Shown piece after piece: positions 36,733 to 38,046 of a DNA stretch of 58,790 nt. Position 1 is the stretch's first letter. Each line of letters opens with the position of its first letter. Position numbers and translations under genes: made by a program. Under the pieces are notes generated by a model that did not search any database, was not told the origin of the DNA, and was given only the letters and a program-made list of their open reading frames with translations. The DNA comes from Escherichia phage FS2B, in the sequence record MW929182, one strand, 5' to 3'.

Positions 36733-38046
36733 TTAGTTATTTGTTTCCATGTCAAAAGAGATTCCACGACCCGCTTCATCGGCAAACCGAACTGTACGGG
36801 TTTGAGGTTCTAATACTTCAGGGTTGTTAGCAATAAAGCGATCAGCGAGACTATCTCCCAAATCTTGTTCCATACCTTCATCAGTCCAGATAACACGAGA
36901 AGGGGCGTTGATATCACCAACAGCGAAACCCTGACCAGAGAACTGACGTGCGCTAACAGTTAAGCCGTTTGGTCGACCACGAGAGGGTCTAGCCATCCAT
37001 CGCTCCATAGAATCACTTGTAATACCAAGAGCTTCTTCAAAAGATGTTCTACGAGTAGGGCTTTCTCTTCGTGACTCTTGTGCTCGACGCATTGCAGGGG
37101 CTACAAACACCCCTTCAATTGCATTGTGTCGGTTAGGTTCCTCTTCTCGACCAAGCAGATCACCACCCGTGTTAGTCGTTAAATTTGTCAACCCCTCAGA
37201 CCAATACGCATGAATCTGACCAGAACCGTGAAGACTAGACATAATCTGAATCTCTTCATAAGGGATTCCAAAGAATCGACTCATGTCTTGGTTAACACAA
37301 TATAGAGCACTTGTTGTATCTTCAATAAGAGAAACCTGACCTAATCCATTGACTAGATGACTAACTGGCTGAGGTGTGGGAAGATATCGAGTTTGGGCCA
37401 TGTATTGATGCGCAACTGCTGGAGAGGAAAATCTCAACACTTGTGAGTTAGGCCACTTCTTGTGAACATACCTGATTTCACGACTAGAGACAACCACTGG
37501 ACAAGGGGAAGTCATAGCCAAATATCCGTGAGAAGTCATGAATAAGTTGTCAAGAGTCATCGCACCACGGCACATCATAGGAAAATTATCCAATACCTCT
37601 TCAATAGAAGTAGGATAATTAAACATGAATTGGATACGAACCCCATTCCACTGAAACTCAATAATATCAGTGAATGTTAATTGAGAACCCCCAGCATAGG
37701 ATTCGTTTGTAGCTTCAGCAAGAAGTGATGCATATTCAATATCTTGTGACTCTAGCCATTCCTTCACATTACTTTCAATCTCCCGTCCAAGCTCTTGCCA
37801 ACGATCAGTTGGGATGAAAGTGTTTTGAGTTCTTGGTGTTTGTCCTCTGACAATAAAGATATCAATGTCATGTGGAGCTATGTTATTAAGGACAGCATCA
37901 CGAACAGCCCCACCAGTAATGATGGGACAGATACCATCTGGAATCAAGTTGTTGTTAATCAACTGTTCAATAAAGTGACGACCAACAGTGATATCAGGTT
38001 GTTGAGCAACCTTATCTTCAATTTGGTTAATCGGGATAACAATCAT
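36733..38046 (-). CDS. Pol-beta-type nucleotidyltransferase, CCA-adding enzyme/poly(A) polymerase-like
   Basis: Head-domain motif PIITGGAVRDAVLNNIAPHDIDIFIV matches the class II tRNA nucleotidyltransferase signature GGxVRD..D.D; start set at ATG 38046 just after the exonuclease stop. Confidence 0.5.
   Translation of the reverse strand: MIVIPINQIEDKVAQQPDITVGRHFIEQLINNNLIPDGICPIITGGAVRDAVLNNIAPHDIDIFIVRGQTPRTQNTFIPTDRWQELGREIESNVKEWLESQDIEYASLLAEATNESYAGGSQLTFTDIIEFQWNGVRIQFMFNYPTSIEEVLDNFPMMCRGAMTLDNLFMTSHGYLAMTSPCPVVVSSREIRYVHKKWPNSQVLRFSSPAVAHQYMAQTRYLPTPQPVSHLVNGLGQVSLIEDTTSALYCVNQDMSRFFGIPYEEIQIMSSLHGSGQIHAYWSEGLTNLTTNTGGDLLGREEEPNRHNAIEGVFVAPAMRRAQESRRESPTRRTSFEEALGITSDSMERWMARPSRGRPNGLTVSARQFSGQGFAVGDINAPSRVIWTDEGMEQDLGDSLADRFIANNPEVLEPQTRTVRFADEAGRGISFDMETNN

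What the first reader, a model, noticed from the sequence alone, without database searches (positions are those of the whole stretch)
36733..38046. CCA-adding-enzyme-like nucleotidyltransferase encoded with a phage tRNA
The N-terminal motif PIITGGAVRDAVLNNIAPHDIDIF is the hallmark of class II tRNA nucleotidyltransferases/poly(A) polymerases, and the protein is about the right size (437 aa). A phage-encoded enzyme of this family could repair tRNA 3' ends, counter host anticodon- or CCA-targeting nucleases, or polyadenylate transcripts. It sits between the dCTP deaminase-family gene and a stand-alone exonuclease, not with the tRNA, so its substrate is open.
Basis: partly seen in the sequence, partly recalled or inferred. 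Interest (0 to 1): 0.5.

Follow-up and report, generated by a model that had tools for sequence, protein, structure and literature searches.

The report
Stripped-down CCA-enzyme-like phage nucleotidyltransferase
This conserved gene of phiEco32-like E. coli phages encodes an enzyme that keeps only the catalytic head of tRNA CCA-adding enzymes, fused to a long floppy tail, so it is probably not a tRNA CCA-adding enzyme; public records already call it a nucleotidyltransferase and its real substrate is unknown.

Summary
Window 36733..38046 (- strand) is a real 437-aa gene with the class II motif A (GGAVRD...DIDIF) at residues 41-64. The window is a Kuravirus, 99.8% identical to phages ES17 and SkaterBoy_Bas90. 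[quoted passage not shown]

[quoted passage not shown] The RRD ribose motif is replaced by an invariant F-P. No EDxxR base-templating motif could be aligned. The neck, body and tail tRNA-binding domains are missing. The "right size" is a coincidence: residues about 283-437 are a disordered, fast-evolving tail.

The family is tiny: about 30 clusters among 1.84 billion proteins. It always sits between the DNA-polymerase exonuclease gene and the dCTP deaminase gene. Sister Privateerviruses keep this gene order without it. Related small phage enzymes also sit next to exonucleases in replication modules. The phage tRNA gene encodes its own CCA end.

Best reading: an active, minimal terminal nucleotidyltransferase that is accessory to the replication operon, with an unknown acceptor. 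It is a variant of a known kind and of moderate interest.

The parts
36733..38046 (-). Whole CDS, 437 aa plus stop: the Gordonclarkvirinae nucleotidyltransferase (PHROG 12715).
37381..38046 (-). Residues 1-222: Pol-beta-superfamily nucleotidyltransferase core, a class II-like head domain. Family-wide invariant residues are G45, G46, R49, D50, D60, D62, F64, Y117, I128, Q139, P156, Y193 and K197.
37855..37926 (-). Motif A, residues 41-64, PIITGGAVRDAVLNNIAPHDIDIF. It holds the GGxVRD triphosphate-binding loop and the catalytic D60-x-D62.
   Evidence: This is the only stretch that aligns by sequence to solved CCA enzymes and PAP.
37684..37707 (-). Residues 114-121 (NESYAGGS): a low-confidence loop that carries the invariant Y117. 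It may correspond to the class II flexible loop, but this is an inference.
   Evidence: pLDDT below 50 at residues 116-118 in both models. Y117 is invariant.
37567..37584 (-). Residues 155-160, FPMMCR, at the position of class II motif B (RRDxTIN). The ribose-recognising R-D is replaced by the invariant F155-P156. C159 aligns with the class II Asn.
   Evidence: hhalign chain from the family to small phage NTases ('FDxxIC') to class II 'RRDLTIN'. Invariance.
37453..37482 (-). Residues 189-198, REIRYVHKKW: a helix carrying the invariant Y193 and K197. It aligns with the first neck helix after motif D of class II enzymes. No EDxxR precedes it.
   Evidence: The alignment is low-confidence in this region.
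37177..37380 (-). Residues 223-290: a family-specific helical extension (helices 247-259 and 263-274) followed by the conserved aromatic-S/T-x-G motif (YWSEGL, 281-286). It is not the class II neck.
36736..37176 (-). Residues 291-437: an intrinsically disordered, indel-rich, recombining tail with short conserved motifs (SFEEALG 335-341, VIWTDEG 385-391, and the C-terminal RFADEAGRGISFDMETNN).
   Evidence: pLDDT below 50 for 283-401. Not alignable between genera. dN/dS 0.15-0.40 with in-frame indels.
38048..38605 (-). Upstream gene: the stand-alone 3'-5' exonuclease subunit of a split T7-like DNA polymerase. Its stop codon lies 1 nt before the NTase ATG.
   Evidence: Pfam DNA_pol_A_exo1. 33% identity to the exonuclease part of T7 gp5. 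Junction sequence.
36190..36723 (-). Downstream gene: dCTP deaminase family, same operon. Its start lies 9 nt after the NTase stop and has its own Shine-Dalgarno sequence.
   Evidence: No promoter or terminator signal above chance in 33-42 kb.

Best explanation
The gene encodes a phage-specific, minimal nucleotidyltransferase in three parts.

1. A core of about 220 aa descends from the head domain of class II tRNA-nucleotidyltransferases and poly(A) polymerases. It keeps the GGxVRD...DxD two-metal and triphosphate site.
2. An extension of about 70 aa is helical and specific to this family.
3. A tail of about 150 aa is disordered and evolves fast, but carries short conserved docking-type motifs.

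It is not a CCA-adding enzyme. The ribose-reading RRD motif, the EDxxR base template, and the neck, body and tail domains that hold tRNA are all missing.

The mechanism I consider most likely is as follows. The DxD site transfers a nucleoside monophosphate from an NTP (or a dNTP, given the loss of the ribose motif) onto a free 3'-OH of a nucleic acid, without a template. The enzyme finds its substrate through a partner protein bound by the tail rather than through built-in tRNA-binding domains. It is made together with the split T7-like DNA polymerase, the primase-helicase and the dNTP-supply genes. It is a lineage-specific accessory to that module, not a core replisome part.

Shown: the fold, the motifs present and absent, the domain architecture, the gene neighbourhood, the distribution and the selection pattern.

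Inferred: catalytic activity, a nucleic-acid 3'-OH as acceptor, tail-mediated recruitment, and the biological role.
For: - The fold and motif A are class II-like.
- G45, G46, R49, D50, D60 and D62 are invariant in 25 cluster representatives with a mean column identity of 24%. This argues for a working active site.
- Motif B is replaced by the invariant F155-P156, and no EDxxR could be aligned. RRD is the ribose-recognition motif (PMC2910056). D and R of EDxxR cannot be replaced for CCA or A repair (PMC11784652).
- There is no PF12627 neck domain or any other class II C-terminal domain, whereas E. coli Cca relatives carry PF01743+PF12627+PF01966.
- Residues 283-437 are disordered. They are still under purifying selection, with in-frame indels and a conserved C-terminus.
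- 9 of 25 family representatives end in W, F or Y (binomial P about 4e-5, not corrected for phylogeny).
- The order primase-helicase / exonuclease / NTase / dCTP deaminase is kept in every relative, including metagenomic ones at about 33% identity.
- The related small NTases of LUZ24-like phages likewise follow and overlap an exonuclease gene in the replication module.
- The gene is present in 97 of 97 phage records that carry a close (at least 60% identical) copy of the exonuclease.
- The protein was detected in phage SU10.
Against: - There is no biochemical evidence for any activity or substrate.
- The position expected for a third catalytic carboxylate may be the invariant Q139. I could not check this, because no model coordinates were available.
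- The alignments behind 'motif B and D absent' are profile-profile chains that are weak beyond motif A. The direct family-versus-class II comparison gives probability 27%.
- Neighbourhood in a compact phage early operon is weak functional evidence. Privateervirus keeps the same operon without this gene, so a replication role is not required.
- Recruitment through the tail is inferred only from composition and terminal aromatic residues.
Confidence: 0.5

Rival explanations
1. It is a genuine tRNA CCA-adding or CCA-repair enzyme. It would rebuild tRNA 3' ends, for example against host nucleases that trim CCA.
For: Motif A and the head fold are closest to class II CCA enzymes. The phage carries one tRNA. 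Genuine CCA-adding enzymes do occur in jumbo phages (PMC7824862).
Against: RRD and EDxxR are not conserved, and D and R of EDxxR cannot be replaced. There are no neck, body or tail domains. The match to the phage tRNA-nucleotidyltransferase family PHROG 2244 covers only 25 residues (E 0.025). The phage tRNA gene encodes its own CCA. The host already has Cca and PAP I. No RNA ligase or Pnkp is annotated in the genome.
Confidence: 0.07
2. It is part of a DNA-modification pathway, together with the adjacent dCTP deaminase, that makes these phages resistant to restriction. The BASEL authors suggested this.
For: PMC11990801 reports that Gordonclarkvirinae resist the tested restriction-modification systems and points to the dCTP deaminase plus nucleotidyltransferase pair. 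Site avoidance does not explain the resistance: the window holds 10 EcoRI, 29 EcoRV, 6 EcoKI and 98 EcoP1I sites. Loss of the ribose-reading motif would allow deoxynucleotide substrates.
Against: I know of no DNA base modification made by a Pol-beta-type nucleotidyltransferase (own knowledge). The phage also encodes ThyX, which argues against the proposed replacement of dT by dU. The dCTP deaminase occurs without the NTase in Privateervirus. The small NTase relatives in LUZ24-like phages have no dCTP deaminase next to them. An 'anti-restriction' gene is annotated elsewhere in the genome.
Confidence: 0.12
3. It nucleotidylates (for example AMPylates) a host or phage protein or a small molecule, for host takeover or counter-defence, with the disordered tail binding the target.
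For: The gene is lineage-specific and accessory. The tail evolves fast and recombines, as expected in an arms race. The nucleic-acid-binding domains of class II enzymes are absent. Other Pol-beta-fold enzymes such as GlnE, MntA and the antibiotic NTases do act on proteins or small molecules (own knowledge).
Confidence: 0.15
4. It is a catalytically dead scaffold that keeps only the fold.
For: Q139 is invariant where a third carboxylate might be expected. Motifs B and D are lost.
Against: The GG loop, R49-D50 and D60-x-D62 are strictly invariant across very divergent members. Core dN/dS is 0.07-0.20.
Confidence: 0.05

Closest known systems
Class II tRNA nucleotidyltransferases and bacterial poly(A) polymerase I (Pfam PolyA_pol head PF01743 with PF12627; e.g. 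E. coli Cca and PcnB, B. stearothermophilus CCA 1MIV, PAP 3AQL)
   Different: The query scores below the Pfam cut-off. Motif B RRD is replaced by F-P, and no EDxxR is found. There is no neck, body, tail or HD domain; instead there is a family-specific helical extension and a disordered tail of about 150 aa. No canonical enzyme of about 400 aa appears among the 57 hits of an exhaustive profile search.
Small (about 160-300 aa) stand-alone phage nucleotidyltransferases (PHROGs 1614, 4400, 10174; e.g. LUZ24 gp42, PaP3 orf27, phage tf gp45)
   Same: They are clearly homologous (hhalign probability 99.5%, E 4e-22, 160 columns). They share GGAVRD..DIDIF, the 'G..IQ.M' strand and the F-x-x-x-C motif. 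Both groups sit in a T7-like replication module directly after, and abutting or overlapping, an exonuclease gene. LUZ24-type members also carry a C-terminal extension with W-[D/E]-rich motifs.
   Different: The small NTases keep the Asp of motif B ('FDxxIC') and align with class II enzymes over 166 columns (probability 96%). The Kuravirus family has Pro there. The neighbours differ: a 5'-3' FEN-type exonuclease and endonuclease I in LUZ24-like phages, against the PolA 3'-5' exonuclease and dCTP deaminase here. Neither group has been characterised experimentally, as far as my literature searches show.
Head-domain-only protein NP_344798.1 of S. pneumoniae (PDB 2LA3)
   Different: It is structurally more distant than the full-length class II enzymes. 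It has no tail, and it is a bacterial rather than a phage protein.
Genuine phage-encoded CCA-adding enzymes (PHROG 2244; jumbo phages)
   Same: Both belong to the Pol-beta superfamily and share motif A.
   Different: The jumbo-phage enzymes are full-length and sit with RNA-repair genes and tRNA arrays (PMC7824862). The query matches only 25 residues of PHROG 2244 (E 0.025).

Membership tests
Class II tRNA nucleotidyltransferase / poly(A) polymerase | Motif A: GGxVRD followed by the catalytic DxD | tested here: met
   G45-G-A-V-R-D50 and D60-I-D62 are present. G45, G46, R49, D50, D60 and D62 are invariant in the family.
Class II tRNA nucleotidyltransferase / poly(A) polymerase | Passes the Pfam PolyA_pol head (PF01743) gathering score | tested here: not met
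   18.8 bits against a cut-off of 23, E 0.002, covering profile positions 3-82 of 126 only. Relatives score 13.5-21.9 bits.
Class II tRNA nucleotidyltransferase / poly(A) polymerase | Motif B (DxxRRD, ribose recognition) | tested here: not met
   The aligned position reads D-N-F155-P156-M-M-C, with F155 almost and P156 fully invariant. The role of the motif is taken from PMC2910056. The alignment runs through an intermediate profile.
Class II tRNA nucleotidyltransferase / poly(A) polymerase | Motif D (EDxxR, amino-acid template for CTP and ATP) | tested here: not met
   No EDxxR occurs in the family consensus. The chained alignment places the E-D in a gap and Y193 and K197 on the following helix. 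The D and R cannot be replaced (PMC11784652). The alignment is low-confidence here.
Class II tRNA nucleotidyltransferase / poly(A) polymerase | Neck (PF12627), body and tail domains that bind the tRNA or RNA primer | tested here: not met
Class II tRNA nucleotidyltransferase / poly(A) polymerase | Head-domain fold closest to class II among Pol-beta NTases | tested here: met
Class II tRNA nucleotidyltransferase / poly(A) polymerase | CCA, CC, A or poly(A) addition to RNA 3' ends | not testable with these tools
   This needs enzyme assays or complementation of a cca mutant.
Pol-beta nucleotidyltransferase superfamily | hG[GS] loop, DxD on the adjacent strand, and the alpha-beta-alpha-beta-alpha-beta core fold | tested here: met
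Pol-beta nucleotidyltransferase superfamily | Third catalytic carboxylate | tested here: inconclusive
   Candidates are E130, which is not invariant (Q, D, S or N in relatives), and E/D99. Q139 is invariant on the neighbouring strand. No model coordinates were available to decide.
cGAS/DncV-like nucleotidyltransferases (CD-NTases) | Match to CD-NTase profiles and fold | tested here: not met
Antibiotic / minimal NTases (NTP_transf_2, LnuA/LinB, KNTase) and MenT/AbiEii toxins | Profile or fold match better than to class II | tested here: not met
PHROG 12715 (Gordonclarkvirinae 'nucleotidyltransferase') | Full-length profile match | tested here: met
   E 4.9e-245, query residues 1-437 against profile positions 1-457 of 457.

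The most novel reading that the evidence does not exclude
The enzyme is tethered to the phage's T7-like replisome by its disordered, aromatic-tipped tail. There it adds or attaches nucleotides to DNA or primer ends. Alternatively, it takes part in an undescribed covalent DNA modification. Either role could contribute to the unexplained resistance of Gordonclarkvirinae to restriction-modification systems, which occurs although their genomes are full of recognition sites. This would be a new job for a class II-type nucleotidyltransferase head domain.
Probability: 0.15. Interest if true: 0.75.

Novelty: new variant of a known kind. Interest (0 to 1): 0.35.

Why it matters
The label "CCA-adding-enzyme-like", which recurs in database annotations, probably misleads for this gene, because the protein keeps only the catalytic head. 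Showing what it really transfers, and onto what, would assign a function to a core gene of a common, therapeutically used E. coli phage group (ES17, SU10 and the BASEL Kuraviruses). It would also inform a wider set of small phage nucleotidyltransferases (PHROGs 1614, 4400, 10174) that also sit in replication modules. Finally, it would test the published suggestion that this gene contributes to the group's resistance to restriction. If the enzyme turns out to be an ordinary RNA-tailing enzyme, the gain is mainly a corrected annotation.

Tried and rejected
- **Alternative start.** A GTG start at 38103 (456 aa) is rejected, because all relatives start at M-I-x-I-P.
- **Direct sequence routes to class II enzymes.** These align only motif A: phmmer against the PDB gave nothing, the family profile against the PDB gave E about 0.2, and hhalign against E. 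coli Cca and PcnB gave probabilities of 15% and 4%. Motif mapping therefore had to go through the small phage NTase profile.
- **NCBIfam and PADLOC.** No hits.
- **Third protein search.** Searching with the E. coli Cca head returned only close (at least 71% identical) gammaproteobacterial enzymes, so the class II profile I built is shallow.
- **Net charge.** I considered charge as an argument against nucleic-acid binding (core pI 5.0). I dropped it, because the head and neck of E. coli Cca are equally acidic (pI 5.3).
- **Promoter and terminator scan.** Nothing above chance, so the gene is treated as operonic.
- **Literature.** Searches for experimental work on this family, LUZ24 gp42 or phage PF01743 proteins found none.
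- **PF26128.** This precomputed tag on many homologues could not be reproduced with the local Pfam copy and remains unexplained.
- **Structure limits.** Residue-level superposition was not possible, for example to place Q139 and E130 relative to the metal site, because the tools return no model coordinates or structural alignments.

Full report
**Observation**

The window carries a 437-aa ORF on the - strand at 36733..38046. The ATG at 38046 lies one base after the stop of the upstream exonuclease gene. It is the true start, because all relatives begin M-I-x-I-P.

The window is a Kuravirus of the Gordonclarkvirinae, the phiEco32-like podoviruses of E. coli. The gene is 99.8% identical to those of phages ES17, myPSH1131, SkaterBoy_Bas90 and ShigP1. 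Public records already call it "nucleotidyltransferase". [quoted passage not shown] The 2014 SU10 paper lists the orthologue (CDS74) under the latter name and detected it by mass spectrometry (PMC4281155).

**How far the class II resemblance goes**

By sequence it is thin:
- Pfam PolyA_pol head scores 18.8 bits against a cut-off of 23 and covers only profile positions 3-82 of 126.
- NCBIfam gives nothing.
- A family profile matches solved CCA enzymes only over about 22-36 residues around motif A, at E 0.2-0.5.
- hhalign against E. coli Cca and PcnB aligns 23-25 residues.

By fold it is clearer. A first AlphaFold model of the whole protein (43 sequences) folded residues 1 to about 280 and left 283-437 below pLDDT 50. 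A second model of residues 1-280, built from 25 diverse relatives, reached pLDDT 90 and pTM 0.86.
- Foldseek against the PDB returned class II CCA-adding, A-adding and poly(A) polymerase chains as the top 30 hits (best E 2e-5).
- The next hits were TENT5C 8.3, CdnE 8.1, Pol X enzymes 7.6, MenT1 6.8, LnuA 6.3 and the archaeal class I CCA enzyme 5.9.

Only 143-166 of the 280 folded residues align, which is roughly the head domain. PADLOC also finds no defence-type nucleotidyltransferase.

**What is missing**

An exhaustive HMMER search of 1.84 billion cluster representatives with the core profile found only 57 proteins at E of 0.001 or better. About 30 are true family members of 274-482 aa. The rest are stand-alone proteins of about 160-300 aa. 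No canonical enzyme of about 400 aa appears.

In 25 family representatives with a mean column identity of 24%, the invariant residues are M1, G45, G46, R49, D50, D60, D62, F64, Y117, I128, Q139, P156, Y193 and K197. The triphosphate loop and the two catalytic aspartates are thus strictly kept, which argues for an active enzyme.

The small proteins belong to PHROGs 1614, 4400 and 10174. They are clearly homologous to the family (hhalign probability 99.5%, E 4e-22). They in turn align to a class II profile over 166 columns (probability 96%, E 2.7e-9). Chaining these two alignments gives the following picture:
- Class II motif B "RRDLTIN" corresponds to "FDxxIC" in the small enzymes and to "F155-P156-M-M-C159" here.
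- The "ED" of motif D falls in a gap.
- The helix REIRYVHKKW (189-198) matches the helix that follows motif D.

RRD is the ribose-recognition element (PMC2910056). The D and R of EDxxR tolerate no substitution for CCA or A repair (PMC11784652). No PF12627 neck or other C-terminal class II domain is detected, whereas E. coli Cca relatives carry PF01743+PF12627+PF01966.

I therefore do not file the protein as a CCA-adding enzyme or a poly(A) polymerase. It is a divergent offshoot that keeps the catalytic head. One caveat applies: beyond motif A these alignments are weak, and the direct family-versus-class II comparison gives only 27% probability.

**The C-terminal half**

Residues 223-290 form family-specific helices, followed by a conserved aromatic-S/T-x-G motif (YWSEGL) present even in the short members of about 280 aa.

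Residues about 291-437 are predicted disordered. They are not alignable between Kuravirus, Nieuwekanaalvirus and Suseptimavirus and are full of in-frame indels. They are not junk, however. Tail dN/dS is 0.15-0.40, against 0.07-0.20 in the core, and the last 18 residues are almost invariant within Kuravirus. The gene is also mosaic: against phage EcM-vB1, dS is 0.49 in the core but 0.056 in the tail.

Of the 25 representatives, 9 end in W, F or Y, against a tail background of 7% aromatic residues (binomial P about 4e-5, not corrected for relatedness). A W-x-D-E-type motif recurs in several lineages:
- VIWTDEG in this window
- PVWVDESD at the C-terminus in Nieuwekanaalvirus
- EVIDWDEV and TLWIDEASAG in LUZ24 gp42

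From general knowledge, acidic tails with aromatic tips are how T7 gp2.5 and gp4 and bacterial SSB dock onto partner proteins. This resemblance is a lead, not a test. In any case, the "right size" for a CCA enzyme is a coincidence.

**Context**

The order primase-helicase / PolA 3'-5' exonuclease / this gene / dCTP deaminase, followed further on by a Dps/ferritin-like gene, thioredoxin and ThyX, is identical in four situations:
- Kuravirus
- Nieuwekanaalvirus
- Suseptimavirus and phage 4E8
- metagenomic relatives at about 33% identity

The start abuts or overlaps the exonuclease stop. Nothing resembling a promoter or terminator exceeds chance. The exonuclease is the detached N-terminal domain of a T7-type DNA polymerase (33% identity to T7 gp5).

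Among 50,697 phage records the family occurs in 97, all Escherichia or Shigella Gordonclarkvirinae. Exactly 97 records also carry the exonuclease at 60% identity or more, so this is a core gene of that group. The sister Privateervirus of Proteus, however, has primase-helicase / exonuclease / dCTP deaminase / thioredoxin / Dps with nothing between the exonuclease and the deaminase. The gene is therefore a lineage-specific accessory, required neither by the replisome nor by the deaminase.

In an independent lineage, the LUZ24-, tf- and NV1-like Pseudomonas podoviruses, the related small nucleotidyltransferase also follows and overlaps an exonuclease gene. There it is a 5'-3' FEN-type exonuclease, inside a T7-like replication module.

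Against a tRNA role:
- The only tRNA, Arg-TCT, is 16.5 kb away and its gene ends ...GGGCGC-A-CCA, so the CCA is encoded.
- No RNA ligase or Pnkp is annotated in the near-identical SkaterBoy genome.
- The host has both Cca and PAP I.

**Mechanism**

What is shown is a conserved two-metal nucleotidyl-transfer site on a class II-type head, without the elements that read the ribose and the base or that hold a tRNA, plus a selected disordered tail and co-expression with replication and dNTP-supply genes.

My best inference (confidence about 0.5) is a template-independent terminal nucleotidyltransferase. It would add NMPs, or possibly dNMPs, to a nucleic-acid 3'-OH, and would reach its substrate through a partner bound by the tail.

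The rivals are:
- a true CCA-adding or CCA-repair enzyme (0.07)
- a step in a DNA-modification pathway (0.12)
- protein or small-molecule nucleotidylation for takeover or counter-defence (0.15)
- a dead scaffold (0.05)

The BASEL authors proposed the DNA-modification reading to explain the group's restriction resistance (PMC11990801). That resistance is indeed not due to site avoidance for the enzymes I counted: the window holds 10 EcoRI, 29 EcoRV, 6 EcoKI and 98 EcoP1I sites. Three points weigh against this reading. ThyX is present. The deaminase exists without the nucleotidyltransferase in Privateervirus. And I know of no Pol-beta-type enzyme that makes a DNA base modification.

**Novelty and verdict**

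The gene and its "class II CCA-like" label are already public. What this analysis adds is that the label overstates the case. The protein belongs to a small, phage-restricted family that keeps only the catalytic head and adds its own extension and tail. It also has cousins in the replication modules of other podoviruses. It is a new variant of a known kind, with unknown function and moderate interest.

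Noticed in passing
window 1..58790: Some short palindromes are strongly depleted while other restriction sites are not. CCWGG (Dcm/EcoRII) occurs 3 times against 82 expected, PstI 0 against 17, BamHI 1 against 10, GATC 122 against 237, and GGCC 45 against 104. EcoRV (29 against 14) and CAGCAG (78 against 32) are enriched.
   Followed up: partly
window 35574..36189 (- strand): Three tandem small ORFs (69, 69 and 65 aa) lie directly downstream of the dCTP deaminase gene. They look like paralogues, and each ends in ...V-x-Y-Y or ...VHY. 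They are annotated as hypothetical proteins in SkaterBoy.
   Followed up: no
window 54553..54628 (- strand): The tRNA-Arg(TCT) gene encodes its own 3' CCA (...GGGCGCACCA), so its maturation needs no CCA addition.
   Followed up: yes
window 38048..38605 (- strand) and the SkaterBoy locus L001: The T7-like family A DNA polymerase is split. The 3'-5' exonuclease domain is a separate 185-aa gene, and the polymerase domain gene lies about 7 kb further along the same operon.
   Followed up: partly
window 40609..41028 (- strand) and upstream; L001 1..6438: A cluster lies just upstream of the replication genes: amidoligase, COOH-NH2 ligase, glutamine amidotransferase, RimK-like ATP-grasp and gamma-glutamyl cyclotransferase genes. 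This looks like a peptide or metabolite modification system. It is conserved in distant relatives.
   Followed up: no
L020 (Proteus phage 3H10_20, Privateervirus) 4177..7200: The same order primase-helicase / exonuclease / dCTP deaminase occurs, but with no nucleotidyltransferase gene between the exonuclease and the deaminase. This is a natural 'minus' comparison.
   Followed up: yes
L018 5956..6900 (LUZ24 gp42); L019, L021-L023: LUZ24-, tf- and NV1-like Pseudomonas podoviruses carry a related small nucleotidyltransferase whose gene overlaps the end of the 5'-3' exonuclease gene. Their C-terminal extensions share a motif, (V/G)IDWD(E/A)xRQ.
   Followed up: partly
window 36736..37200 compared with L013 (EcM-vB1): There is recombination inside the gene. 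Synonymous divergence from EcM-vB1 is 0.49 in the core but 0.056 in the tail, and other pairs show the opposite pattern.
   Followed up: partly
homologues P0001-P0042: Many close homologues carry a precomputed Pfam tag, PF26128.2. The local Pfam scan does not reproduce it for the query or for P0001 and P0022. I do not know what the tag stands for.
   Followed up: partly
window 34616..35227 (- strand): The gene annotated 'DNA binding protein' in relatives is a Dps/ferritin-like protein (Pfam Ferritin, E 5e-7). It is conserved next to thioredoxin and ThyX in all relatives.
   Followed up: no
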